From IMG/VR virus record IMGVR_UViG_3300021958_000044, positions 1 through 64,000 of that record: 64,000 nt of DNA. The stretch is one strand, 5' to 3'. This document shows positions 4,569 to 33,368 of the stretch, in pieces. Below the pieces are notes generated by a model. It was not told the DNA's origin and ran no database searches. It was given only the letters and a program-made list of their open reading frames with translations. Source of the stretch: a virus (lineage: Duplodnaviria; Caudoviricetes). Within the stretch, counting starts at the first letter, position 1. Every line of letters begins with the position of its first letter. A program made the translations under genes and the position numbers.

Positions 4569-7500
4569 TTAAGCTACTCTTAACCACAATTTAACTGTAG
4601 AAATTGTTTCAGTTCCAGAGTCAACTGTTAATCCTGACCAGGCATTATCATAGTTTCCAAGGTACGTGGCAACATAATTTCCAATAAAAGTTCCTTCGTA
4701 TTGTTTTGTATATGTCTTAGTATACTGGCCAATATATGTTTTTGTATATTGGGTTGTGTAGTAACCAGTAAATACGCCTTCATATACTTTATCAAAATAC
4801 CCAGTAAACAATTGCGAGTACTGACCTTGATACAGTTTAGTGTATAGACCTACCCATACTTTTTCAAACTGACTGCTGTAGTATCCAGTAAACGATCCTT
4901 CATACTCTTTTGTATAAACTTTTAAGTAAGTACCGCTATACTGTCTTTGGAACACTCCTTCAAATGTTCCTTCATACAATCCAAGATAAGTTTTAGTGTA
5001 TTGACCAGAATAGTCACCGGCCCACACTTTAACAAAGTCGCCAACGTAAGCTCCTTCATATTGTTTTGTAAATGCTCCTTCAAATTGTTTGTTAAAAGCA
5101 CCTTCATATGTTTTACTAAACTGTTGACTGTATTGACCAATATATGTTTTTATGTAGTTGCCTGTAAATGCACCTTCGTATTGTTTTGTGTAGTTTCCAA
5201 GATACGTTGTGTTGTATGCGCCTTCGTATTGCTTGGTATACGTTCCTTCGTACACGCCTGTATACACGCCTTCGTATATTTGAGGTCCCTCATAAATTCC
5301 TATATAGTATCCTGTATAGATACCCGCATATGCTTTTTCATATGACTTATTATAGAACCCATTATAGTAGCCAGTGTAATCACCGTTATATGTTCTTGAT
5401 CCGGCCCATAGTTTAGCATATGCTTTAATATATGCTACTGAAACATATGTCTTATTAAAAGCGCCTTCAAAGTTGCCTGTATATTGACCAGCATATGTTC
5501 TGGATCCAGCATACTGACCTGCATATGCTTTTACGTATCCAGGTGCGTATGTTTTAGCATAATTTGTTCCATATTGGTCCGCATACGTTCTTGTACCAGC
5601 ATATTGCTTAGTGTAATTCTTATTAAATGTACCTTCATACTGTTTATTATATTGACCAGTGTATGTTCTTGATCCAGCATATTGCGCAGCAAATGTTCCA
5701 GAATAGAATAAGTTAAATATTCCTACGTATGCTCTTTCATAATTTTTATTATACGACTTAATGTAATCTCTTGTATAATTTCCTACATAGTTTTTGTTGT
5801 ATGCGCCTTCATACAATGCACTGTAGATATTAATATAATTTTTAGACCATAACCCTGTGTACTGCTTGAGATATTGTTTTGTATACACGCCCTCGTACGT
5901 TGCAGAGTAATTTTTGTTGAAAGATCCTTCATACAGAGCAAGATATTGTTTGTTGTATTGTCCAACATACGTTTTAATGAACAGTCCAGTGTAAGTTGCA
6001 ACATATTGCTTTGCAAATACTCCCTCATATCCTTTGTTATAGTTAGTATTGTATGTTCCAGCATACTCACCAGCATAGTTTGTTCCATATGTACCTGCAT
6101 AGTCAGCACCATATGATTTTGAGAAAGTGCCAGAGAATATGCCTTCATATTGTTGATTGTATATGCCTACAAACGTAGTGTTGTATACGCCTTCATATAA
6201 TTTAGTATAATTGGTACCATACGTTCCTGCATACTCGTTTGCATAATTCTTATTATAGGTACCTGCATAATCTGCACCATAGTTTGATGTATACGTACCA
6301 GTAAACGCGCCTTCATATTGTTTATTGTATTGTCCTGCATACAATTTTGCATATTGCTTAGCATATGTTCTGATCCAATTTTTTACATAGTTTCTTGTGT
6401 AAGTGCCACCAAATTGTCTTGAATAGTTACCAGTATATTGTTTAGTATAATTGGTACCATATTGCTTAGTATAGTTGCCAGAATAATCGCGAGTGTAATT
6501 ACCTGTATATTGTTTAGTATAATTGGTACTATATTGCTTAGTATAGTTACCAGAATAATCGCGAGTATAATTTCCAGTGTATTGTTTAGCATAGTTTGCA
6601 GTATAGTCTTTTGTGTAGTTAGTGTTGTATGTTCCACTGAACTGTCTGGCATAGTTGCCTGTATACTGTTGGGCATAGTTTGCTGTGTATGCTTTGGCGT
6701 AGTTTGTACCATAAGTTCCAGCAAACGTGCCAGTGTATTGGCCAGTATATTGCTTTAAGTAATTGGTACCGTATTGTCTTCCGTAGTTTGTACCATAAGT
6801 TCCAGCAAACGTGCCAGTGTATTGGCCAGTATATTGCTTTAAGTAATTGGTACCGTATTGCCTGTCATAATTTGATGCGTAAGTTCCAGCAAATTGTCTT
6901 GCGTAGCTTCCTGCATACTGCTTTAAATAGTTAGTACCATATTGTCTGTCATAGTTACTAGTGTACGTTCCAGTAAACGTATTATCATAATACCCAGTGG
7001 ACGTAACTGAGAAATGTCTGTTCCAATTAACATTATAGTTTGTTACGTATGTTCCACTAAATGCTCTATCATAGTTTCCTGTATACTGCTTTAAATAGTT
7101 AGTACCATATTGTCTGTTATATCTTTTTGTATAGTTACCAGTATACGCTCTAGTATAGTTTCCTGTATATTGTCTAGTATAGTTTATACTATATTGTCTA
7201 TCATAGTTGCTTGTATACTGTCCAGTAAACCCTTTAGTATAGTTAATAAGTCTTGCGTAACTTACTGTCCCTGGACCGTTATATTCCATTTCACCATTTA
7301 GTATGTTACTACCGGCAATCCAACCCTTTGGAAAAATATCGTTATTATAGTTTACTGCTCCCCCAGCATAGTATTGGGTGCTTAAATAGAATGGACCTGC
7401 TTTTGCAGCTGCAAAAGCAACATCACGAGCATAGTTAATGCTACCCGTATAGTTTGTTCCAGGACCGAGGAAGAATTGCTCTCTCTGATAATTTGTATTA

Positions 7501-10500
7501 TATGTTCCAGAGTATTGTCTAGCATATCTAGCAGTCCATTGCTTTAAGAAGTTAGTCGCATATTGGCCGGAGAAGGTAGTATTATAAGTTCCTGCATACT
7601 GTCTATCATATGCCTTTGTCCATTGAACTAGATAGTTAGTTCCATATGTTCCAGCAAACTGTCTTGCATAGTTTCCTGTATATGCTTTTTGCCATGCTTT
7701 TGTCCAAGTCTTAGCCCATTGTTTTACATAGTTACCAGCAAATGCTCTTACATAGTTTCCTGTATATGCTTTTTGATATCTTCTAGTCCATTGAACGAGA
7801 TAGTTAGTTCCATACTGCCCACTAAATGCTCTATCATAGTTTCCTGTATATTGTCTAGTATATCTTCTAGTCCATTGAACGAGATAGTTGGTTCCATACG
7901 TTCCAGCAAATAACCTATCATAATTTCCAGTGTATTGTTTAAGATATTGTTTTGTCCATTGAACAAGATAGTTGGTTCCATACGTTCCAGCAAACAATGT
8001 ATTATAAGCACCAGTGTATTGTTTAAGATATTGTCTTGTCCAAGCTACTTGCCAGTTAGTCGTATATTGGCCAGTAAACGTTCTATCGTAAGCGCCTGTA
8101 TAACTTTTTAAATATTGTTTTTGCCAAGCTACTTGATAGTTAGTTGTATACTGTCCAGAGAAAGTAGTTTGATAAACACCGCCATATAGTCTGGAATATT
8201 GCTGTAGATAATTTGTAGCATACTGTCCAGAGAAAGTAGTTTGATAAACACCGCCATATAGTCTGGAATATTGCTGTAGATAATTTGTAGCATATTGGCC
8301 TGTAAATGCTCTCTCGTATAAACCAGCATATGCTTTTTGGAAAGATGCTGTATAATCTTTGTTATAATTAGCAGTGTATAATCTTTCGTAATTACCGCCG
8401 TATGTTTTTGTCCACTGGCTTACGTATTGTCCCACATATGCTTTTTGCCAAATTTTGGCATAGTTGCCTGTGTATGCTTTTGTGTATAATCTTTGATAGG
8501 ATCCAGTGTACTGTTTAAGATATTGTCTGTTCCATTGGCCAGTGTATGATTTTACCCAGTTACCAGTATACGCTTTAGTCCACAGACTTGTGTACAGACC
8601 AGTATATTGATTGATCCAAATTTTTGCATATAAGCCAGTATACTGCTTTAACCAGTTTCTACTGTAGATGCCCGCATAAGCCTTTTGATACAGTTTTGTG
8701 TAGATGCCTGCATATTCTTTTGTATAGTTCTTATTCCAGCTGCTAATATAGTTAGCAGTGTATGCTCCCTCATATGTTTTGGTCCACAATCTATCAAATT
8801 GGCCAACATACGTTTTTGTATATGCTTTTACATAAGCACCAGTATAAGCCTTTTGGTATTGTTTGGTGTAATTAGTTTCGTAGTTTTTTATGTAATCTTT
8901 AGCATAAGTCTTGACATACGCGCCTACGTATGTCTTGGTGTAATTCCCGGTGTATAACCTATTGTAATCGGTTGTATACGTTTTTACGTAAGCACTTGTG
9001 TATGCGCCCTCAAAAGACCCAGCAAGGAAGAATCCCGTGTAGAATTCCGTTGTACTAGCATATGTGCCCTCGAACGTACGAGTGCCTTCATATTGAGCTG
9101 TATACTGGCCAGTATATGATTTTAAATAGTTTGTGCTATATTGTCCATTGTAAGTTCTAGATCCTGCATACAGCTTTGCATATTGGTTGACATAGTTTAC
9201 ACCTAGATAAGTTTTATTAAAGTATCCTGTGTATTGTCCTTCATAGGTTCTGGTACCTGAGAACTGTCTTGAAAATATGCCAATGTAAGTTTTGGTCCAA
9301 TTACCGACATATGCTTTTTGATATTGATCTGCATACTGGCCAGCATATGTTCTGGATCCTGCATATACTCCTTCATAAGCGCCTTCGTATGTTTTTACAT
9401 ATTGCTTAGTAAACGTTCCTTCATAGTTGCCAGCATACACGCCTTCAAACTGTCTTACGCCTGTATAGTATCCTGTGAACGTACCCTCATACTGTCCGGT
9501 GTATGCTTTCTCATATTGGCCAACATATGTCTTAGTGTAGTTTCCAATATAAAGTTTTTCATACTGGCCGACGTATACGCCTGTGTATGTTTTGTTAAAT
9601 GCGCCTTCGAATGTTCCAGTATATTGTTTTACATATTGGCCTATAAAAGTTCCAGTGTATTGGCCCAAGAAAGTTTTGGTATACAGTCCTAAGAAAATTC
9701 TAGAGTAAGTATCAGAAAAATATCCAGTAAACGTTCCTTCGTATTGTTTGTTGAACGCTCCTTCAAATTGTCTACTATATTGACCAACATAGGATTTTAA
9801 ATATGTTCCTACATACTGGCCTTGATATTGTTTTGTATAAACGCCAACATAGACGCCTTCAAATGCTCCTGTGTATTGTGCAACGAAGGATCCCTCATAT
9901 TGCTTGGTATAGTTTCCTGTAAACGTTCCTTCGTATTGGCCTACATATGTTTTTGTATATTGGCCAGTGTAAGCACCTACATAAGTTTTTTCGTATTGTT
10001 TTGTAAATGCACCTTCATACTGCTTATTATATGCTTTTTCGTAAATACCAATGTAAGCGCCAGAATATGTTTTGTCAAATGCACCTACATACGTAGCAGC
10101 ATACTGCTGACTTGAAATAGTGTTTCTTGTATCTGTAACATCATCACTAACTAACACCCAAGTCTCACCCGGTGCAGCTGGATTAGTAGAAGCTAATCTA
10201 TATGTTCCAATTCCCGTATCTACTATTTGATTTCTTAATCGAGCTGCAAGAGTTTTAATCTCTGCATCTGACATTTCTTGAATTGAGCTGCTGTTTAGTC
10301 TTACAGGTCTAGTTACAGAAGGACTAGAAACGCCTTGGTCTTTTCTCCATAGCTTGTATACTGTGGTACCTTGTTTGTTTGTATCTGTTACGCTGTATCC
10401 TGAATCACTATAAAGACTTGCATTTGGATTTACTTCAGATAACCAATATGATCCCAAACCATTAGAAACTAGGTTAGAAAGAGCTCTTGAAATAATGGTA

Positions 10501-10850
10501 GAAGATAGGTTGTTGCTATGCTCTGCTGCATATCCATTATCGTCGACAAATAAAGGATACACAATAGACGACTCCGACGTAGATGTTAAGTTTTGTTTTA
10601 ACGTATACGTACTGGTTGATATTGCATTTTGCGAAGGGTGAAATCCTACCACCTCTGTTCTGGTAGTATCAGAAAATGATCCCGCATCCGTTCCGTCACC
10701 ATTTATATTAATGGTTCCTGATGCAGTTAATGAGACTGAAAATTCTGTAAGAACCTGATGAACAGCATAGTCCATCTCGGCATCTTGCATCTCTTGTAAA
10801 CCAAGAAATGTACTGCCAACAGTTTCTTTTAATCTTAGAGGATTACCCAT
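4569..10850 (-). CDS. Giant Tyr/Gly/Thr-rich tetrapeptide-repeat protein, probable tail fibre (2093 aa)
   Basis: About 250-aa N-terminal domain with duplicated QEM(Q/S)DAE motif; about 1750 aa of [YFW]-x-x-x repeats split by a non-repeat core (res ~1122-1204); short C-terminal tail; located in the fibre cluster. Confidence 0.8.
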   Translation of the reverse strand: MGNPLRLKETVGSTFLGLQEMQDAEMDYAVHQVLTEFSVSLTASGTININGDGTDAGSFSDTTRTEVVGFHPSQNAISTSTYTLKQNLTSTSESSIVYPLFVDDNGYAAEHSNNLSSTIISRALSNLVSNGLGSYWLSEVNPNASLYSDSGYSVTDTNKQGTTVYKLWRKDQGVSSPSVTRPVRLNSSSIQEMSDAEIKTLAARLRNQIVDTGIGTYRLASTNPAAPGETWVLVSDDVTDTRNTISSQQYAATYVGAFDKTYSGAYIGIYEKAYNKQYEGAFTKQYEKTYVGAYTGQYTKTYVGQYEGTFTGNYTKQYEGSFVAQYTGAFEGVYVGVYTKQYQGQYVGTYLKSYVGQYSRQFEGAFNKQYEGTFTGYFSDTYSRIFLGLYTKTFLGQYTGTFIGQYVKQYTGTFEGAFNKTYTGVYVGQYEKLYIGNYTKTYVGQYEKAYTGQYEGTFTGYYTGVRQFEGVYAGNYEGTFTKQYVKTYEGAYEGVYAGSRTYAGQYADQYQKAYVGNWTKTYIGIFSRQFSGTRTYEGQYTGYFNKTYLGVNYVNQYAKLYAGSRTYNGQYSTNYLKSYTGQYTAQYEGTRTFEGTYASTTEFYTGFFLAGSFEGAYTSAYVKTYTTDYNRLYTGNYTKTYVGAYVKTYAKDYIKNYETNYTKQYQKAYTGAYVKAYTKTYVGQFDRLWTKTYEGAYTANYISSWNKNYTKEYAGIYTKLYQKAYAGIYSRNWLKQYTGLYAKIWINQYTGLYTSLWTKAYTGNWVKSYTGQWNRQYLKQYTGSYQRLYTKAYTGNYAKIWQKAYVGQYVSQWTKTYGGNYERLYTANYNKDYTASFQKAYAGLYERAFTGQYATNYLQQYSRLYGGVYQTTFSGQYATNYLQQYSRLYGGVYQTTFSGQYTTNYQVAWQKQYLKSYTGAYDRTFTGQYTTNWQVAWTRQYLKQYTGAYNTLFAGTYGTNYLVQWTKQYLKQYTGNYDRLFAGTYGTNYLVQWTRRYTRQYTGNYDRAFSGQYGTNYLVQWTRRYQKAYTGNYVRAFAGNYVKQWAKTWTKAWQKAYTGNYARQFAGTYGTNYLVQWTKAYDRQYAGTYNTTFSGQYATNFLKQWTARYARQYSGTYNTNYQREQFFLGPGTNYTGSINYARDVAFAAAKAGPFYLSTQYYAGGAVNYNNDIFPKGWIAGSNILNGEMEYNGPGTVSYARLINYTKGFTGQYTSNYDRQYSINYTRQYTGNYTRAYTGNYTKRYNRQYGTNYLKQYTGNYDRAFSGTYVTNYNVNWNRHFSVTSTGYYDNTFTGTYTSNYDRQYGTNYLKQYAGSYARQFAGTYASNYDRQYGTNYLKQYTGQYTGTFAGTYGTNYGRQYGTNYLKQYTGQYTGTFAGTYGTNYAKAYTANYAQQYTGNYARQFSGTYNTNYTKDYTANYAKQYTGNYTRDYSGNYTKQYSTNYTKQYTGNYTRDYSGNYTKQYGTNYTKQYTGNYSRQFGGTYTRNYVKNWIRTYAKQYAKLYAGQYNKQYEGAFTGTYTSNYGADYAGTYNKNYANEYAGTYGTNYTKLYEGVYNTTFVGIYNQQYEGIFSGTFSKSYGADYAGTYGTNYAGEYAGTYNTNYNKGYEGVFAKQYVATYTGLFIKTYVGQYNKQYLALYEGSFNKNYSATYEGVYTKQYLKQYTGLWSKNYINIYSALYEGAYNKNYVGNYTRDYIKSYNKNYERAYVGIFNLFYSGTFAAQYAGSRTYTGQYNKQYEGTFNKNYTKQYAGTRTYADQYGTNYAKTYAPGYVKAYAGQYAGSRTYAGQYTGNFEGAFNKTYVSVAYIKAYAKLWAGSRTYNGDYTGYYNGFYNKSYEKAYAGIYTGYYIGIYEGPQIYEGVYTGVYEGTYTKQYEGAYNTTYLGNYTKQYEGAFTGNYIKTYIGQYSQQFSKTYEGAFNKQFEGAFTKQYEGAYVGDFVKVWAGDYSGQYTKTYLGLYEGTFEGVFQRQYSGTYLKVYTKEYEGSFTGYYSSQFEKVWVGLYTKLYQGQYSQLFTGYFDKVYEGVFTGYYTTQYTKTYIGQYTKTYTKQYEGTFIGNYVATYLGNYDNAWSGLTVDSGTETISTVKLWLRVA
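6435..6590 (-). repeat. Imperfect 72-bp (24-aa) tandem duplication in the C-terminal arm of the 2093-aa gene
   Basis: atattgtttagtataattggtac recurs at 6435 and 6507. Confidence 0.85.
6698..6860 (-). repeat. 84-bp (28-aa) tandem duplication, 79 bp identical, in the C-terminal arm
   Basis: 6698-6776 equals 6782-6860; the same period is visible at 6921 and 7089. Confidence 0.9.
7786..8120 (-). repeat. Imperfect 84-bp (28-aa) tandem array in the N-terminal arm
   Basis: gtccattgaac at 7786, 7870 and 7954, and gtccaag at 8038. Confidence 0.85.
8149..8292 (-). repeat. Perfect 72-bp (24-aa) tandem duplication in the N-terminal arm
   Basis: 8149-8220 is identical to 8221-8292 (GQYATNYLQQYSRLYGGVYQTTFS x2). 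Confidence 0.95.
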
Positions 10851-10855
10851 TAATA

Positions 10856-13800
10856 CTATGCCTTAAATTTGTAAGCGCTGTCACCATAGACGCTACCGGT
10901 ATTTATAAATGTAATCCTAGCTGCATCGTAACCAATGATAGCAGATCCAGGAATTCCTCCGTCACCAGATTGACCATACTGAGTATAGTTTGTACCTGGA
11001 TTAGGCTCACTAATATCATTTGTACCAGCTGCTGGTGAATCATTAAATCCGCCAGCTCCTATACCTAATTGGCCTAGTAATCCTCCGTCTCCTCCATGTA
11101 TTCCATAATTGACAGCACTATCTGTGCCATTTCTGTTTGAATTGTTTTCTGTAATATAGCCTAATGTAGTATTGTAACCAGCACCATGACCACCATTACC
11201 ACCTGCTAATGATTCTGTAGAACCATTGACTGGGAAGCCACCGGCACCACCACCGCCACCGCCTCCAGATATTGTACCGTAGTTTTCTATAAACAAATCT
11301 ACGCCATTTTCGGTCTTAACAGCATTACCGCCATTACCACCGCTCGATCCTGTTCTTGTGGCCGGTGTTGCTGTTCCTCTAGCACCAGAAGATCCGATTA
11401 TACCACCACCATCTTTAATTAGTATTCTAACTTTATGTCTGAATATTGACCTAAGCACATTCAAAGTACTCAAATCCAATGCTGGCGAAGTTGTGGATGT
11501 TCCAAATAAAAATACCCCAGGTTCAATAGTAATGTTTACATGCTGAGGAAGCGTTCCAGGACTTGCCCCAAGATTGCTTAATTCGGTTCTCAAAACATAA
11601 TTGGTTGTATTAGAAGAGATTGTTATATCATGCCTTTGATACTTAACATGAGAAACTTTCCACTCATCCCCTTCTTTAATCCTACCAACAATTACATTTT
11701 TCCATTCATCAGCTACTTTAACATTAAGCTCTTCGACTTGCTTCATTGTGCCGCTTTCATTGATATTGCTGACACCACCGCCAGTAGTAGTTAATTCTCC
11801 TGTCTTGGTATTTGCAACGGCCGTTGTGCTAGCATAACTAGTAACATACGAAATAGGTCCTGTATAATTGTTTGTATAATGAAGTGCTTTAGATACGCTA
11901 GCATAGTTTCCTACGAATACGCCACCATATGACTTAACAAAGGTTCCTTCGTATTGCTTGTTGAATGCACCTTCGTATACCTTTGTATACGTTTTACCAT
12001 ACTGCTTAGTGAATGCACCTTCAAATTGTTTATTGAATGCGCCTTCAAAAGTTCCTGTATATTGGCCAAGATATGTTTTATTGTAAACGCCAGAATATGT
12101 TTTGACGTAATCGCCTAAGTAAGTCTTATTATATGTTTTTATATAATTTTTATTAAATGCGCCTTCGTATAGTTTTGTATACTGCTTAGTATACAGACCA
12201 ACAAACACTCTTGAGAACGTTCCTATGTCATTTCCGCCATAGTACTGTACGCCAGTAAATTGTCTAGAGTAGGTCCCTGACCACTGTGAATTCCAATTTT
12301 TACTATATGCTTTTGTCCATTGTTTAGTAAACGCACCTTCATATTGCTTAATATAATTCTTATCAAAAGATCCTTCATACTGTTTAGTAAACACACCCTC
12401 AAAGGCACCTTCATATTGTTTATGATATGACTTTATCCATTGTTTGTTATATACGCCTGTCCAATATCCAATGTAGTCTCTAGTACCTTCGTACGCTTTT
12501 GTATACTGTTCCGTAAATTGTCTGTTGTAATTTTTTGTCCACGTTTTAGAATAAATGCCAACCCATATCTGATCCCAAATTTTTGCATACTGCTTAATAT
12601 AATTTTTTGTCCAGTTTCTTTGCCATTGGCCAGTATATGCTTTTTGATAAAGTTTTGTCCACTGTCTATCATACTGTCTTTCGTAGTTTCCTGTGTACAG
12701 TTTTATATATCTTTTTGTCCAAGAGTTTTGGTATGTTCCAGTGTAATCGCCAGCATATGAATTTGCATACTCGTTTTGATAGTTTGCTGAATATTGCTTT
12801 GTCCACTGCTTAGTCCAAACTCTTTGATAACTCCCAGTAAACACTTCATCAACCGATCCAACATATTGCGGCTCAAACGAACCAACATAATTTCTACCGT
12901 AGTTTTGAGTTCCAGTCCCTTGATAGGAGGCGTTGAAACTCTCATAGAAAACAATTGGTGGATTAAACTCGGGCTCGACTTCGGTTCTTGAATACGTCTT
13001 TACATACGATGCCCCACCTTCAAATTGTTTTAAATAAGTGCCTATAAATGCTCTATGATAAGCCAATCCTCCAAAAAAAACGTTCTCACCACCAGCATAG
13101 TTGCGTAGGCCTCGATAATAATTCTCTCCATTAGCTGGTAATTGTATCCCATCAAAGGTTTGTTGGAACCATGCCCATCCTTGATACAGGCCTGTATAGA
13201 ATCTTGCCCATCCACGAATATAAGATGGACCTGGACCAGCCCAAGCTCTTGAATACGTACCTAGCCATTGAGTAGAGTATGTTGCAGTAAAATCAGCAGT
13301 AGTATACTGCCTAGACCATTGGCCGCCATATAACTTGATCCATTGTCTTTGATAGGATCCAGCCCAATCTCTAGACCATTGTCCTACCCAATTTGTATCA
13401 TACTCATTCTGGTATTGGCCCTGATATAGTTTAACATAATTACCTGTGTACTGTCTGTCGTAGTTTTCAGTATAAACGCCTTCATACACTCCTACATAGT
13501 GTTTAGTATAATCCCTAGAGTAATTTGCTCCGTAGTATCCTGTATACTGTCCCTCATAGTTATCGCCATATTGTCTCTGCCAGGTTTTAGTATATTGACG
13601 AGCATAGTTTGTTTCAAAATATTCAGTAGCTGTTCTATAGCTTTGGAACACTCCTGTATACGCAGCATCGTATGCTTTATTGTATGTTTTAGTGAACAGT
13701 TGGGTATAAATGCCTGTATAGGCTTTCTCGTATTGGCCAACGTAAGTCTTGGTATACGCTTTTGAAAAAAGATGTGTATATACTGCAGTATATTGTTTAT

Positions 13801-14287
13801 TGTAGATTTTTGTATATACGCCTACCCCGTCTCTTGCAAAAAGCCCTGTAAATGCTCCTGTATATTGTCTTGCATAAGGACCGCCAGAAAAGTTTCCTGT
13901 ATAAGAACCTTCCCATTGATGGGACCACTGGTGAGAATATTGGCCAATGTATGTTTTGGTATACGTTTTGTTATATGATTTTACATAGGCACCGACATAA
14001 GTTTTATTAAAAACGCCAGAATATTGTTTATTAAATGCGCCTTCAAACTGTCTACTATACTGCCCTACAAACGTTCCTGTGTACTGTCCTAGATAAGTTT
14101 TTGTGTATTGTTTGCCGTAAACTTTTGTAAACAGACCAACATACGTTTTTGTATATTGTCCTGTATATGCTTTAATGTAAGCACCAACGTAAAGAATCTT
14201 AGGGGCTAGGTTATCTACGCCAATAAAAGACGCATCATAATCTCTAGAACCACTTAAATAAGATTTTGAATAATTTATGTTTGCCAC
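10856..14287 (-). CDS. Tyr-rich tetrapeptide-repeat tail fibre with C-terminal gp38-like polyglycine adhesin domain (1143 aa)
   Basis: GTG start; same [YFW]xxx repeat as the neighbouring gene; C-terminus ...GGNGGNAV...LFIENYGTISGGGGGGGAGG resembles the T2/T6-type gp38 adhesin signature. Confidence 0.8.
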   Translation of the reverse strand: MANINYSKSYLSGSRDYDASFIGVDNLAPKILYVGAYIKAYTGQYTKTYVGLFTKVYGKQYTKTYLGQYTGTFVGQYSRQFEGAFNKQYSGVFNKTYVGAYVKSYNKTYTKTYIGQYSHQWSHQWEGSYTGNFSGGPYARQYTGAFTGLFARDGVGVYTKIYNKQYTAVYTHLFSKAYTKTYVGQYEKAYTGIYTQLFTKTYNKAYDAAYTGVFQSYRTATEYFETNYARQYTKTWQRQYGDNYEGQYTGYYGANYSRDYTKHYVGVYEGVYTENYDRQYTGNYVKLYQGQYQNEYDTNWVGQWSRDWAGSYQRQWIKLYGGQWSRQYTTADFTATYSTQWLGTYSRAWAGPGPSYIRGWARFYTGLYQGWAWFQQTFDGIQLPANGENYYRGLRNYAGGENVFFGGLAYHRAFIGTYLKQFEGGASYVKTYSRTEVEPEFNPPIVFYESFNASYQGTGTQNYGRNYVGSFEPQYVGSVDEVFTGSYQRVWTKQWTKQYSANYQNEYANSYAGDYTGTYQNSWTKRYIKLYTGNYERQYDRQWTKLYQKAYTGQWQRNWTKNYIKQYAKIWDQIWVGIYSKTWTKNYNRQFTEQYTKAYEGTRDYIGYWTGVYNKQWIKSYHKQYEGAFEGVFTKQYEGSFDKNYIKQYEGAFTKQWTKAYSKNWNSQWSGTYSRQFTGVQYYGGNDIGTFSRVFVGLYTKQYTKLYEGAFNKNYIKTYNKTYLGDYVKTYSGVYNKTYLGQYTGTFEGAFNKQFEGAFTKQYGKTYTKVYEGAFNKQYEGTFVKSYGGVFVGNYASVSKALHYTNNYTGPISYVTSYASTTAVANTKTGELTTTGGGVSNINESGTMKQVEELNVKVADEWKNVIVGRIKEGDEWKVSHVKYQRHDITISSNTTNYVLRTELSNLGASPGTLPQHVNITIEPGVFLFGTSTTSPALDLSTLNVLRSIFRHKVRILIKDGGGIIGSSGARGTATPATRTGSSGGNGGNAVKTENGVDLFIENYGTISGGGGGGGAGGFPVNGSTESLAGGNGGHGAGYNTTLGYITENNSNRNGTDSAVNYGIHGGDGGLLGQLGIGAGGFNDSPAAGTNDISEPNPGTNYTQYGQSGDGGIPGSAIIGYDAARITFINTGSVYGDSAYKFKA
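10900..10907 (-). promoter_or_regulatory. T4-type late promoter TATAAATA inside the 3' end of the 1143-aa gene
   Basis: Exact consensus about 50 nt upstream of the 2093-aa gene start. Confidence 0.65.
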
Positions 14288-31100: not shown

Positions 31101-31578
31101 CACCTGTTATTTCAATTCCTTCTAGTGACTTTAATATTGCTACGTCTGGTGCGTAACACTCAATGTATCTTGGTCTTCTATAACTTGCATCAGATGGCTT
31201 AATCACGTCCTCGGAAGGATAGAACACTGTAGCATTATCATTAAAAACTATTCTAAAAAGTAATTGAATTGCTCGTTGTGATCCTTTTGATTTATAAAAG
31301 TCAAATATATTTTTTATGGTTAATCTATCATCAGATTTGATAAGACCTGGCAGGTCTTTTAAGTATGTTCTTTTAAACTCTTCAAGAAACTGAGACGTTG
31401 TTTTATCTATATCTCTATATTCAATTTGGTTTCTAGCAACGTCTACTGTATTACCAGATTGCTCCATCCATTCATAATATGCCTCAAGAAATACACGAAA
31501 CGATTCCCCTTCTTCAGCATAGAAGGCAGGAAACTGATCTTTTACAAATAAAGAAATCTGATCATCGATTTCTCTCAT
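28111..31578 (-). CDS. gp7: Baseplate wedge initiator gp7-like (1155 aa)
   Basis: QFPAFYAEE, FYKSKGSQRAIQLLFRIVF, C-terminal YIHDNNFYQSYSY...HVAGTRLFG; lies between gp6 and gp8. Confidence 0.88.
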   Translation of the reverse strand: MREIDDQISLFVKDQFPAFYAEEGESFRVFLEAYYEWMEQSGNTVDVARNQIEYRDIDKTTSQFLEEFKRTYLKDLPGLIKSDDRLTIKNIFDFYKSKGSQRAIQLLFRIVFNDNATVFYPSEDVIKPSDASYRRPRYIECYAPDVAILKSLEGIEITGATSGAKAFVESISTKLLNNVRTNVLRLSNLRGNFLRGELLSKSSDGIQDNMPIVTGSLSDINITLGGSNNAIGDIFNVTGPQGKQGLARVTSIADATGLVSFDLANGGFGFSTNTEFTAINVNDQNVVVANVVNEAQTYSNTVESAYDYVGKRIDNAQFIRFETVDQTLEEISILSGVAFNSNIQNFIANTENETTSPWITGRDSGNTVIANGYVVNLNVTNTGESAVLIAPITGSFGNQNELTITLADSTHTFQVRERIDEEDQVELEYASNTDAFTAGDIIQGDESNANGVVESVNATHITVNGSFGTWVANDNVYIVSANSTTANVTGINVTTQGANAEVSSANSTVLNVADIVGEFTQNKKVKGQRTNAIATIDAGGVAVTGVSDVFFNDTNGTQAVVDTYANATVTAEVIGSNATNVGFRNTRYPANNSVATFVANTSAYIVGRDSNTFANIVTVGTGSGATFKIGSLENEDAITIYTDFIGDNNSANVAYLDCVIDGGNSGIGFLDSIDITDGGNNYEPGQTIVFDRGGPGGGPPNINAVATITTVTTNATHTNTVTSITVTNPGDGFFTSSPANSDNLSVGTGLTFDTNFDFGYGFPKDSDGDYTSILDTVLTRYSGNIGTISSLTEINPGNNYNFDPFLSVYSGGIAKFDKRDVILYLEDKNGTFIVGENVNQTVTNPGQTLTISTITGSYSNGDPYAATIEDFTIGSSVQQVINSTANAIGDIFQSDTNTISIVNPRIKIFNAAASVFEYNAANLIPFVSSASNLVFSVSPNTEINVASVSAEITAVGQVVQSAVSKGQVYAQGDDPQQVRLRRLSFAVGFNDSGPVTGSLSGATGTVIGIQADEDTRPIGDNADINATAQAANGIVTSVEVIDSGYGYQHDSTVTLVSTNTAQNIVVSGTANVTTTGLGQGFWADKTSFLNNKYIHDNNFYQSYSYLIESGLSLDKYRDIVLKSAHVAGTRLFGRVIKQSTVNNEVTIANSSIEAI

Positions 31579-33368
31579 TACAACCTCTCTTGAACGATCG
31601 TAATACCTGGAGTCTTGTTATAACTTAAAATGATATTCTTATCAGACTTAATTGTTCTGCGTTTAGGTGTAGCACTAATCTTAATTGAGTCGCCAGAAAA
31701 AGCACTTACTAAAAATGAGTTCAACGTAACTGTCCCTGTCTCATAATTTACAGAACCTGCATCTGGTGAAACAATTTGAAGAGTAGCATTTTGTTGTTGA
31801 ATAATTTGTATTTTTCCTAAACCATCATCTCTAAGTATGCATCCATTCAATCCACCAAACGTAAACGTGGTAGATGTTATAGGAGAGCTTCCGTCAACAA
31901 ATCGGTTATTGAGAGGAATCTCTCTAAGAATCTCATTATTAAATTGTAATACAAACGTCACCGCAACACCAAGTATTGGAATAATTTTCTTTTCTAATAT
32001 TACGTCTGTGTCATTATTAAGAATAGAAGGATCGGCTGCATCTATTGCTGCTGACACTTTGGATACTCTTAATGTAGCTGCAAAATCATTTATCTCTGCA
32101 TCTGCGTGTGCCTGAATTGCATTTTGCACTACCGACTTAATCTCATTATCACTTTTAACGGTGACATTAGGATTATACCTTACTGAGGTAATAATGTCAA
32201 CGAATAAAAACTCTGGATCAATAACTCTAGGTTCAATAGATAAAGGCGCTCTTAATTTTAAGAAGTTCTCTATATCTCTCTTTCTTGATAAAGGGATACC
32301 CTCTGCGTTCTTGAGATCAACTGATACCAACACTTTACCAAACTGTGGCGGAATAGCTTCTTCCCCGCCGTATACATTCAAAGCCTCTATATCATTAAAA
32401 TTCTGCAACAAAAGTGTTTTGTAATCATTGACTGTTACAGTTCTGTCTTGTAATGATAAGGACCTAGAAGCATTCTTTTTAATTGAGTCGAGAGTCTCTC
32501 CAACACTGCCGCCTTGAGCAGAGGATCTAGTAAATATTACTACATTGCTGTACCCTTGTATGTTACCAGATAATGCAAAATTGTTTGCGCTGTTTGGTCC
32601 ATCAGCATCAGATCTTCTATAAATTGCTTCAATAATATTTCCGTTTTCTAATGGTCTTCCTAGAATACCGTCACCAAACTGTACTTCATACTTGCCAGTT
32701 TCAGCCGGCACTACAAAGTATGTGTTAGTAGTTCCATCAATACCAATAGTATTAAGGTTTCTCGTCCACTGTGAATTAGATGTGTCAGATGCTGACGCAA
32801 CGACTTTGACAGTTAAACTATTGACATCTACATCTGGATTACTTAACACAAATCTTTGTTCGGTGTTAGAAGTGGATACTGTAAACAATTCAGTAATAAT
32901 ATTTCCTTCAAATATTTCTACATCGCTCGCAATATAGTTTCCATTTGCATCAGCTGATACTGTTATAGACTCGTCTGTTGTAAAAATATAAGAGTTTGAT
33001 TCTACAGATGTAGTGAATTCTGTGTGTTTAGGTATGGCAATTTGTGCTGGCGTGTCATTTGGATAAATTGAAATATCTACAACAGCTTTTGCACTTGAGT
33101 ATGACGAAGGCAAGTAGTTTAATGTTTTTGCGTGAGAGACAATGCTATCCCTTAATACAGCACTATTAAGAAACGATTCGTTTGCTACCATGTTAAGGTA
33201 GAAGTTCTGCATGAACGTGTTATAGGAAAGAACGTCCAGCAATACGTTTAAATTGGATCCTGTAAAATCATAATCCTTTAGTGCAGATTGCGTCTGCAAG
33301 AAAGTTTGAAGATCTGATTTAATATCTTCAAAATTAATATTAGCTACTGAAAGTGATGTATTTGCCAT
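31578..33368 (-). CDS. gp6: Baseplate wedge subunit gp6
   Basis: INFEDIKSDL...DYDFTGSNLNVLLDVLSYNT...ESFLNSAVLRDSIVSHAKTLNYLP; DRTVTVNDY. Confidence 0.95.
   Translation of the reverse strand: MANTSLSVANINFEDIKSDLQTFLQTQSALKDYDFTGSNLNVLLDVLSYNTFMQNFYLNMVANESFLNSAVLRDSIVSHAKTLNYLPSSYSSAKAVVDISIYPNDTPAQIAIPKHTEFTTSVESNSYIFTTDESITVSADANGNYIASDVEIFEGNIITELFTVSTSNTEQRFVLSNPDVDVNSLTVKVVASASDTSNSQWTRNLNTIGIDGTTNTYFVVPAETGKYEVQFGDGILGRPLENGNIIEAIYRRSDADGPNSANNFALSGNIQGYSNVVIFTRSSAQGGSVGETLDSIKKNASRSLSLQDRTVTVNDYKTLLLQNFNDIEALNVYGGEEAIPPQFGKVLVSVDLKNAEGIPLSRKRDIENFLKLRAPLSIEPRVIDPEFLFVDIITSVRYNPNVTVKSDNEIKSVVQNAIQAHADAEINDFAATLRVSKVSAAIDAADPSILNNDTDVILEKKIIPILGVAVTFVLQFNNEILREIPLNNRFVDGSSPITSTTFTFGGLNGCILRDDGLGKIQIIQQQNATLQIVSPDAGSVNYETGTVTLNSFLVSAFSGDSIKISATPKRRTIKSDKNIILSYNKTPGITIVQERL

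What the first reader, a model, noticed from the sequence alone, without database searches (positions are those of the whole stretch)
6435..8292. Length-matched tandem duplications at mirror positions in the two arms
Seen in sequence: a perfect 72-bp duplication in the N-arm (8149-8292) faces an imperfect 72-bp duplication in the C-arm (units at 6435 and 6507). A 79/84-bp perfect duplication in the C-arm (6698-6860) faces 84-bp units in the N-arm (7870, 7954). Both pairs centre on about 7365, inside the core. The paired units differ in sequence, so they are not copies of each other. Inference: fibre length evolves by compensatory 24- or 28-residue insertions in both arms to keep register, analogous to compensatory changes in an RNA stem. 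In each pair one copy is perfect and the other diverged, suggesting sequential events.
Basis: partly seen in the sequence, partly recalled or inferred. Interest (0 to 1): 0.85.

Follow-up and report, generated by a model that had tools for sequence, protein, structure and literature searches.

The report
Paired repeat expansions in hairpin fibre
A giant tail-fibre protein of an uncultured T4-like phage has two long arms that match rung for rung in mirror image, and its repeat duplications occur in equal-length pairs at facing sites in the two arms, much as the two sides of an RNA stem change together.

Summary
The 2093-aa ORF (4569-10850, minus strand) has an aromatic residue at every fourth position in two roughly 870-residue arms around an 82-residue core.

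- **Duplications as described.** 72/72 and 67/72 nt identity for the 72-nt pairs; 79/79 exact (81/84) and 75/84 for the 84-nt pairs.
- **Wider pattern.** They belong to a larger mirror layout: each arm holds 8 x 28-aa units next to the core, then 2 x 24-aa units.
- **Independent register.** Whether tetrad position 3 is Gly agrees between the arms at one mirror register only (anchor sum 2321). That gives 174 of 188 tetrad pairs, Fisher p = 5e-35. In this register the duplicated units face each other exactly.
- **Relatives.** N- and C-arm lengths correlate (r = 0.82, 81 proteins). Same-period tandem arrays sit at mirror distances (16 of 56 against 1.15 expected). One close pair differs by matched 36/38-aa indels at mirror sites. 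Other close pairs differ by one unit in one arm, which may be intermediates.

Fold-back versus inter-chain pairing, oligomeric state and the order of events are not settled; two AlphaFold2 models were uninformative. This scan has noted similar hairpin fibres on other DNA. I found no paper describing them.

The parts
4569..10850 (-). 2093-aa fibre ORF (P0001). N-domain residues 1-249, N-arm 250-1121, core 1122-1203, C-arm 1204-2071, short C-tail.
   Evidence: It lies in a T4-like baseplate and fibre gene block.
8148..8294 (-). N-arm perfect 72-nt (24-aa) tandem duplication. In register phase these are the units at residues 849-872 and 873-896.
   Evidence: 72/72; faces C-arm residues 1452-1475 and 1428-1451.
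6426..6569 (-). C-arm 24-aa x 2 units (residues 1428-1475) facing the N-arm duplication.
   Evidence: 67/72; 12/12 tetrads concordant for Gly at position 3 at sum 2321.
6698..6860 (-). C-arm near-perfect 84-nt (28-aa) tandem duplication, residues 1331-1385.
   Evidence: 79/79 exact, 81/84; faces N-arm residues 936-990.
7870..8037 (-). N-arm 84-nt unit pair (residues about 938-994), the most similar pair of the N-arm array, facing the C-arm duplication.
   Evidence: (75/84).
7491..8162 (-). N-arm array of eight 28-aa units (residues 897-1120).
6570..7241 (-). C-arm array of eight 28-aa units (residues 1204-1427).
   Evidence: The pattern of unit-to-unit similarity mirrors that of the N-arm array (Mantel r = 0.64, p = 0.003).
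7242..7487 (-). Non-repeat core (residues 1122-1203) on the symmetry axis, with GPG motifs near both ends. Presumed turn or tip.
8307..9014 (-). N-arm non-array zone (residues 613-848) that fixes the register uniquely.
   Evidence: 92% concordance at sum 2321, p = 1e-10.
5718..6425 (-). C-arm non-array zone (residues 1476-1711) facing the N-arm non-array zone.
9477..9596 (-). Outer N-arm 16-aa tandem (residues 419-458), 169-208 residues from the arm's outer end.
5151..5276 (-). Outer C-arm 16-aa tandem (residues 1859-1900), 171-212 residues from the arm's outer end. This is a third length-matched mirror pair in this gene.
10856..14287 (-). Upstream 1143-aa paralogue (P0002) with the same arm-core-arm layout and a C-terminal Gly-rich tail-fibre domain.
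   Evidence: phrog_2056. Gly-at-position-3 mirror correlation r = 0.77 over 26 outer tetrads.

Best explanation
The N-arm and C-arm of this fibre protein lie side by side in antiparallel orientation. Most likely this is one out-and-back hairpin with the 82-residue core at the turn and both termini at the base.

Each four-residue rung (aromatic, x, G/K/R/T, x) of one arm faces a particular rung of the other; rung anchors sum to 2321 in the inner arms and 2317 in the outer arms. The structure needs like-with-like rungs: Gly faces Gly and Lys faces Lys at position 3, and Gly faces Leu at position 2.

Length changes start as tandem duplications or deletions of whole super-units of 3 to 9 rungs in one arm, by replication slippage or unequal recombination. 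A one-unit mismatch is tolerated for a time, probably as a bulge or near the turn. An equal-length change at the facing site of the other arm then restores the register.

The present gene is the balanced outcome, with 8 x 28 + 2 x 24 residues in each arm.

- **Shown:** the mirror register, equal unit counts, facing duplications, matched arrays and matched indels in relatives, and single-arm unit polymorphisms in relatives.
- **Inferred:** physical contact, intrachain fold-back, the beta-strand nature of the arms, the bulge intermediate and the order of events.
For: - **Duplications verified**.
- **Mirror Gly-at-position-3 correlation.** r = 0.88 over 127 tetrads at one shift only; other shifts give |r| of 0.39 or less, and the same-direction comparison gives 0.29 or less.
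- **Rung table.** 104 none/none, 70 Gly/Gly and 14 discordant pairs, p = 5e-35.
- **Unique register in the non-array zone,** with the same register in the 24-aa and 28-aa zones.
- **Facing of duplicated units** shown rung by rung.
- **Position-2 Gly faces Leu/Val/Ile** only at shift 0, p = 4e-6.
- **Unit-similarity matrices of the two arrays agree** in mirror order (Mantel r = 0.64, p = 0.003) but not in same-direction order (-0.24).
- **Family-wide arm lengths.** N-arm against C-arm r = 0.82 over 81 proteins, with no correlation to core length.
- **Mirror tandem arrays.** 16 of 56 N-arm arrays have a same-period partner at mirror distance, against 1.15 expected from swapped proteins; same-direction geometry gives 4.
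- **Unrelated unit sequences with equal period and copy number** in P0302, P0237/P0238, P0278 and P0276.
- **Matched 36/38-aa indels** in P0008/P0009 against P0015/P0017.
- **P0028 against P0047.** They differ by one residue outside a 16-aa C-arm unit present once or twice. This unit faces a two-copy 16-aa N-arm repeat at mirror distance: 144-175 against 146-177 residues from the outer arm ends.
Against: - No structure was obtained. Both AlphaFold2 models have mean pLDDT below 40.
- The register drifts by one rung between the outer and inner arms (2317 against 2321). Several stutters are not mirrored, for example the 5-residue spacings at residues 548 and 1802.
- The Gly-at-position-3 rule is not visible in the P0008/P0009 group, whose outer N-arm has almost no Gly. 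The contact rules therefore differ between subfamilies, or pairing is looser there.
- Single-arm unit changes exist in close relatives, so selection for exact matching is not absolute.
- No close relative of this particular gene was found. The history of its own duplications therefore rests on copy divergence alone.
- A related 3347-aa protein of phage C48C1 does not show a simple two-arm layout.
Confidence: 0.8

Rival explanations
1. The arms pair antiparallel, but between different chains. For example, an antiparallel dimer would pair the N-arm of one chain with the C-arm of another, with no fold-back. The length compensation would work the same way, but the core would sit mid-rod rather than at a tip.
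For: Sequence mirror symmetry cannot tell intrachain from interchain antiparallel pairing.
Against: - The rod would have identical ends, which is odd for a fibre encoded in a baseplate module.
- Core size ranges from about 56 to about 900 residues with arms still matched. This fits a tip domain at a turn better than a mid-rod junction.
- The N-domain and the short C-terminal tail are conserved together across the family, as expected if they meet at the base.
- The only solved precedent, the T4 gp37 needle, has six antiparallel strands from three chains with the receptor-binding head at its end (PMC9659904).
Confidence: 0.1
2. The mirror layout reflects history and not contact. One ancestral 28-aa array was split by insertion of the core, and the equal counts and facing duplications are coincidence.
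For: The 28-aa units of the two arms are homologous in the same chain direction.
Against: - A split array predicts same-direction similarity, not mirror similarity.
- Gly-at-position-3 concordance is 92% in a 59-tetrad zone with no arrays, at one mirror shift only, and also holds in the outer arms.
- Facing arrays in relatives have unrelated unit sequences but equal period and copy number.
- Arm lengths covary across 81 proteins.
Confidence: 0.03
3. The perfect 72-nt and 79-nt repeats are assembly artefacts, or products of recent gene conversion. In that case there was no recent duplication, and the contrast between one perfect and one diverged copy pair says nothing about compensation.
For: - The record is a metagenome-assembled viral contig, and perfect tandem repeats are error-prone in short-read assemblies.
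- No second assembly of this region exists in the collections searched.
- The divergence asymmetry is individually non-significant.
Against: - With the copy numbers as assembled, the arms are in exact register from the outer zone to the core.
- Removing either perfect copy would put the arms 24 or 28 residues out of step, so a false duplication is unlikely.
- Gene conversion would explain the perfect identity but would leave the matched copy numbers intact, and those are the main point.
Confidence: 0.06

Closest known systems
Needle domain of the phage T4 long-tail-fibre tip protein gp37 (Bartual et al. 2010, as described in PMC9659904)
   Same: [quoted passage not shown]
- The variable central segment is flanked by two conserved segments of the same chain.
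   Different: - The gp37 needle is roughly 50-60 residues per strand (my estimate from the residue ranges in PMC9659904) and is held by iron sites made of His residues (PMC6957217).
- Here the arms are about 870 residues, are built of four-residue aromatic rungs, have no HxH motif and only 4 His, and show no sequence similarity to any solved structure or any Pfam family.
- No length evolution by paired repeat units is reported for gp37 in the two papers I consulted on its needle (PMC9659904, PMC6957217).
Fold-back antiparallel coiled-coil arms of SMC and Rad50 proteins (from my own knowledge, not checked here)
   Same: One chain runs out to a central domain (the hinge or zinc hook) and back. 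The N- and C-terminal halves of the rod must match in length, and interruptions lie at facing positions.
   Different: Those rods are alpha-helical heptad coiled coils in chromosome and repair proteins. This protein has a period of four with Gly-rich rungs, is predicted as strand (low-confidence models), and is a virion fibre. No homology.
Compensatory evolution of RNA stems (an analogy, not a family)
   Same: Two distant segments of one polymer covary in mirror order. Insertions on one side are matched on the other. One-sided changes occur as tolerated intermediates.
   Different: The pairing units here are four-residue protein rungs and 12- to 36-residue super-units, not bases. The pairing rule is like-with-like (Gly/Gly, Lys/Lys) and size complementarity (Gly/Leu).

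Membership tests
T4 gp37-type fold-back needle | Two segments of one chain flanking a central head run antiparallel and in contact. | tested here: inconclusive
   Mirror covariation at one register argues strongly for antiparallel contact. No structure was obtained, and fold-back against inter-chain pairing cannot be separated.
T4 gp37-type fold-back needle | His-x-His iron-binding sites along the needle. | tested here: not met
   No HxH motif and only 4 His in 2093 residues.
T4 gp37-type fold-back needle | Sequence similarity to gp37 or to solved fibre tips. | tested here: not met
   No Pfam family, no PDB sequence match at E up to 1, and only a weak PHROG of unknown function.
T4 gp37-type fold-back needle | Homotrimer. 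| not testable with these tools
Undescribed aromatic-tetrad two-arm fibre family (relatives P0003-P0324) | Conserved N-terminal domain of about 250 aa. | tested here: met
   301 representatives at E up to 0.001 and 27 at E up to 1e-30. Full-length relatives appear.
Undescribed aromatic-tetrad two-arm fibre family (relatives P0003-P0324) | Two arms with an aromatic residue at every fourth position around a non-repeat core, with arms of matching length. | tested here: met
   Arms of 872 and 868 residues in this gene. Family correlation r = 0.82 over 81 proteins.
Undescribed aromatic-tetrad two-arm fibre family (relatives P0003-P0324) | Same-period tandem arrays at mirror positions in the two arms. 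| tested here: met
   Three pairs in this gene (16, 24 and 28 aa). 16 of 56 arrays matched across 41 non-redundant proteins, against 1.15 expected.
SMC/Rad50-type fold-back coiled coil | Heptad-repeat alpha-helical arms. | tested here: not met
   The period is four, with 12% Gly in the arms. Low-confidence models give strands and no helices in the arms.

The most novel reading that the evidence does not exclude
These proteins form a previously undescribed class of length-tunable virion fibre: a single chain that runs out and back for hundreds of residues as a rung-matched beta ladder. Its length evolves in quanta by paired duplication or deletion of repeat units in the two arms, with one-sided variants as viable intermediates. 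This would be a protein counterpart of compensatory evolution in RNA stems, and residue contacts could be read from a single sequence.
Probability: 0.6. Interest if true: 0.88.

Novelty: new variant of a known kind. Interest (0 to 1): 0.8.

Why it matters
- **Contacts from sequence.** Mirror covariation this clean gives a rung-by-rung contact map of a roughly 1700-residue repeat protein from sequence alone. Structure prediction failed on the same protein.
- **Rare type of protein evolution.** Paired unit gains in two halves of one chain show length evolving under a register constraint, with natural intermediates available for study.
- **Phage biology.** It points to fibres whose reach can change in steps without disturbing the tip or the base. 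Arms range from about 75 to 870 residues across relatives, and this may bear on how marine phages reach receptors.
- **Annotation.** The gene family is widespread in metagenomes but has no Pfam family and no solved structure.
- **Assembly checking.** The register rule offers an internal check on repeat copy number in assemblies.
- **Protein design.** Like-with-like rung pairing could serve as a design rule for rods of set length.

Tried and rejected
- **AlphaFold2.** The 1143-aa paralogue with a 9-sequence alignment gave mean pLDDT 37. Residues 985-1340 of this protein alone gave mean pLDDT 32. Both were too poor to use; I note only that the arms were drawn as strands.
- **Searches for close relatives or second assemblies of this gene.**
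  - Megablast against phages: none.
  - tblastn against phages: one distant hit, phage C48C1 at 27%.
  - Viral contigs with the N-domain: one relative at 66%, truncated at the contig end.
  - Viral contigs with the core: two weak hits.
  - Exact unit patterns in viral and metagenome contigs: none.
  - Read-level copy-number variation could not be examined.
- **Family and structure libraries.** Pfam, PHROGs and PDB sequence searches gave nothing useful.
- **Crude statistics.** A count of Y-x-G coincidences over all mirror sums and a three-letter-class palindrome alignment did not discriminate, because any period-4 sequence is trivially self-palindromic. I replaced them with rung-level tests.
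- **Residue-level register.** Mutual information at positions 2 and 4 could not separate residue register S = 2323 from S = 2325, because it is confounded with the Gly state.
- **P0008/P0009 group.** I looked for the Gly-at-position-3 rule there and did not find it.
- **Cross-compensation idea.** I considered that the two perfect duplications (+24 aa in the N-arm, +28 aa in the C-arm) compensate each other. The state before both events would be 248 against 244 residues, one rung out of step. This cannot be excluded, and the order of events remains open.
- **Literature.** Searches for tetrapeptide-repeat fibres, fold-back fibres and compensatory indels in fibres found nothing on this family.
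Full report
**Context**

The window is part of an 81-kb IMG/VR viral contig, estimated at about 48% complete. The finding lies inside a 2093-aa ORF on the minus strand (4569-10850). This ORF sits in a co-directional block of T4-like baseplate wedge and fibre genes. The baseplate gp6 homologue is closest, at 35-39% identity, to T4-like phages of alphaproteobacteria.

The protein has these parts:

- an N-terminal domain of about 250 aa;
- two arms, residues 250-1121 and 1204-2071, in which nearly every fourth residue is Tyr, Phe or Trp. Position 2 is mostly Thr or Ala, position 3 is Gly, Lys, Arg or Thr, and position 4 is Asn, Gln or Thr;
- an 82-residue non-repeat core, residues 1122-1203;
- a short C-terminal tail.

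The upstream 1143-aa ORF has the same arm-core-arm layout plus a Gly-rich C-terminal tail-fibre domain.

**Checking the observation**

All four repeats exist as described.

| Repeat | Position | Identity |
|---|---|---|
| N-arm 72-nt tandem | 8148-8294 | 72/72 |
| C-arm 72-nt units | 6435 and 6507 | 67/72 |
| C-arm 84-nt units | 6698-6776 and 6782-6860 | 79/79 exact, 81/84 per unit |
| N-arm 84-nt units | 7870 and 7954 | 75/84 |

A sliding scan shows that the only zones of strong higher-order periodicity in the whole gene form a mirror pattern. In the N-arm, a 24-aa period runs at about residues 842-900 and a 28-aa period at about 898-1060. In the C-arm, a 28-aa period runs at about 1202-1400 and a 24-aa period at about 1410-1480.

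Phased on the recurring F-[AST]-G rung, each arm holds eight 28-aa units next to the core, followed outward by two 24-aa units. These are N-arm residues 897-1120 and 849-896, and C-arm residues 1204-1427 and 1428-1475.

They are diverged homologues in the same chain direction.

**An independent register**

I needed a register that does not use the duplications. I therefore asked whether any rung property of the N-arm, read outward from the core, matches that of the C-arm read outward.

'Gly at rung position 3' does. The correlation is r = 0.88 over 127 rungs at one shift only. All other shifts give |r| of 0.39 or less, and the same-direction comparison gives 0.29 or less. At this register the rung anchors sum to 2321.

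Over the inner arms, the outer 54-rung runs (sum 2317, r = 0.74) and an 8-rung run (r = 1.0), the table is 104 none/none, 70 Gly/Gly and 14 discordant pairs. Fisher p = 5e-35. All seven inner-arm mismatches are an extra Gly in the C-arm.

Periodic arrays are ambiguous by whole units, so I split the arms into zones.

| Zone | Concordance at sum 2321 | Best other shift |
|---|---|---|
| 59-rung zone without arrays | 92% (p = 1e-10) | 75% or less |
| 24-aa zone | 12/12 | 83-92% at +/-24 |
| 28-aa zone | 96% | 89-93% at +/-28 |

Both arms also stop at the core in the same register: rung 1117 faces rung 1204.

A second rule supports the same register. Gly at position 2 faces Leu, Val or Ile at position 2 of the partner rung. 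This holds in 13 of 20 cases (p = 4e-6) and only at shift 0. Most cases come from repeated units, so they are not independent. Position 3 otherwise pairs like with like, for example Lys/Lys 26 times.

**The duplications in this register**

- N-arm units 849-872 and 873-896 face C-arm units 1452-1475 and 1428-1451, rung for rung.
- The near-perfect C-arm 28-aa duplication (1331-1385) faces N-arm residues 936-990, which is where the most similar N-arm pair lies.
These are 16-aa tandems at 169-208 and 171-212 residues from the outer arm ends.
- The pattern of similarity among the eight N-arm units mirrors that among the eight C-arm units (Mantel r = 0.64, p = 0.003). Same-direction order gives -0.24. 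The third unit from the core is the odd one out in both arms.

The register is continuous only with the copy numbers as assembled. An assembly artefact in either perfect repeat is therefore unlikely.

**Relatives**

No close relative of this gene was found. The family, however, is large. The N-domain has 301 representatives at E up to 0.001, and two word-based searches returned about 140 full-length proteins.

- **Arm lengths.** In 81 proteins with two clean arms, N-arm and C-arm lengths correlate (r = 0.82; 0.73 without this gene). Arms range from 75 to 872 residues. Neither arm length correlates with core length. The sequences are related to one another, so the p-values overstate independence.
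- **Matched indels.** P0008/P0009 and P0015/P0017 are 73-81% identical by BLASTP, or 84-90% over aligned columns. Their arms differ by exactly two indels: 36 aa in the N-arm and 38 aa in the C-arm. These begin 84 and 86 residues from the outer arm ends.
- **Systematic scan.** In 41 non-redundant proteins, 16 of 56 N-arm tandem arrays (period 12 or more) have a same-period C-arm array at the mirror distance. The expectation is 1.15 when C-arms are swapped between proteins (none of 2000 swaps reached 16). Same-direction geometry gives 4.
- **Unrelated facing units.** In P0302, about seven 12-aa units of the FLGNYARTSTRD type face about seven of the SSNYVGNYTVNR type. Both arrays sit at 0-83 residues from the outer arm ends. 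P0278 and P0276 carry matched 24-aa arrays.

**One-sided changes**

It does occur, on a small scale.

- **P0028/P0051 against P0047/P0052.** Outside the indel, P0028 and P0047 differ by a single residue. A 16-aa C-arm unit is present once or twice, and each state is seen in two separately listed proteins of one 90% cluster. It faces a two-copy 16-aa N-arm repeat at the mirror distance, 144-175 against 146-177 residues. The population therefore holds both a 2/1 and a 2/2 state, next to the core.
- **P0237 against P0238.** At 85% identity they carry 12-aa arrays of 7/6 and 6/6 copies.
- **Less clean cases.** Two further small one-sided indels in more distant pairs were harder to interpret.

I read these as the intermediates of stepwise compensation. 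They also show that a one-unit mismatch is tolerated. Assembly error in such arrays cannot be excluded.

**Order of events in this gene**

The perfect pairs are less diverged than their facing partners. The counts are 0/72 against 5/72 (p = 0.06) and 3/84 against 9/84 (p = 0.13), pooled p = 0.01. That fits sequential events, but gene conversion would give the same picture.

Removing both perfect copies leaves 248 against 244 residues. The two recent events may therefore have corrected a one-rung mismatch together. The data do not decide between these readings.

**Mechanism and limits**

The best explanation is physical antiparallel pairing of the arms, with selection keeping rungs in register. 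Intrachain fold-back is the more likely geometry for three reasons:

- the core varies from tens to hundreds of residues while the arms stay matched;
- the N-domain and the C-terminal tail are conserved together;
- the only solved precedent, the T4 gp37 needle, is a six-stranded antiparallel needle made by three chains with the receptor-binding head at its end (PMC9659904; iron sites in PMC6957217).

This protein is not a gp37 homologue. It has no HxH motif and no Pfam or PDB match.

Several points remain open or count against a strict reading.

- Oligomeric state and strand geometry are unknown.
- The register shifts by one rung between the outer and inner arms, and some stutters are not mirrored.
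- The Gly rule is absent in the P0008/P0009 subfamily.
- The 3347-aa protein of phage C48C1 has a more complex layout.

**Prior knowledge**

Literature searches found no description of this family or of paired repeat evolution in fibres. Earlier notes of this scan describe similar hairpin fibres in at least five other genomes. I did not use them as evidence.

Noticed in passing
window 10856-11640 (C-terminal ~260 aa of the 1143-aa ORF): The Gly-rich C-terminal domain matches a tail-fibre host-specificity PHROG. Several homologues carry the precomputed Pfam PF05268 (gp38 adhesin). Under a fold-back model this adhesin would sit beside the protein's very short N-terminus, so the core rather than a terminus may be the attachment end of this second fibre.
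   Followed up: partly
window 4569-4640 (last ~22 residues of the 2093-aa ORF) and the C-termini of P0008-P0030: A short C-terminal tail after the C-arm is conserved across the family: it ends ...TYTLYVRI[AS] in many relatives and ...KLWLRVA here. It always co-occurs with the ~250-aa N-domain, as if the two dock together at the base of the hairpin.
   Followed up: no
window 7242-7487 (core) and the arm-core junctions of relatives: GPG motifs mark the inner ends of the arms. There are two in this core, each followed by a Tyr-containing stretch of similar form. Single GPG or GPGP motifs occur at the N-arm end in the 1143-aa paralogue, P0009 and P0028.
   Followed up: no
L007:5107-15150 (phage C48C1, OQ984149.1, 3347-aa hypothetical protein): This is the only hit in the deposited-phage (INPHARED) collection searched. 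It has the same N-domain and C-tail and a ~990-residue N-side repeat. Its C-side repeats are cut into five blocks of 18-72 rungs separated by globular inserts of about 120-180 residues, including a near-exact ~90-residue internal duplication. It does not fit the simple two-arm plan.
   Followed up: partly
P0302 residues 398-484 and 938-1022; also P0278, P0283, P0276: In some relatives every third rung lacks the aromatic residue (for example S-T-R-D in one arm and R-S-S-N in the other). These 'empty' rungs recur with the same period in both arms, which would be a second kind of mirror covariation.
   Followed up: partly
window 5400-5700 and 9050-9400 (residues ~496-593 and ~1724-1821): Four six-residue stutters of the form G-[ST]-R-T-[YF] occur in each arm, with mirrored spacings (34, 31, 26 against 26, 30, 35 residues). 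The local sequences around one pair are homologous in the same chain direction, not the mirrored one. So same-direction homology and mirror geometry coexist here.
   Followed up: partly
window 31578-33368: The gp6-like baseplate wedge protein is closest (35-39% identity) to T4-like phages of Caulobacter, Sinorhizobium and Pelagibacter rather than to cyanophages or coliphages. This hints at an alphaproteobacterial host.
   Followed up: no
L008 (IMGVR_UViG_3300037631_001403): The closest relative of the N-domain (66% identity) is cut off by the contig end about 490 residues into the gene. Most representatives found with the N-domain are similar fragments, which suggests that these repeat genes routinely break metagenome assemblies.
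   Followed up: no
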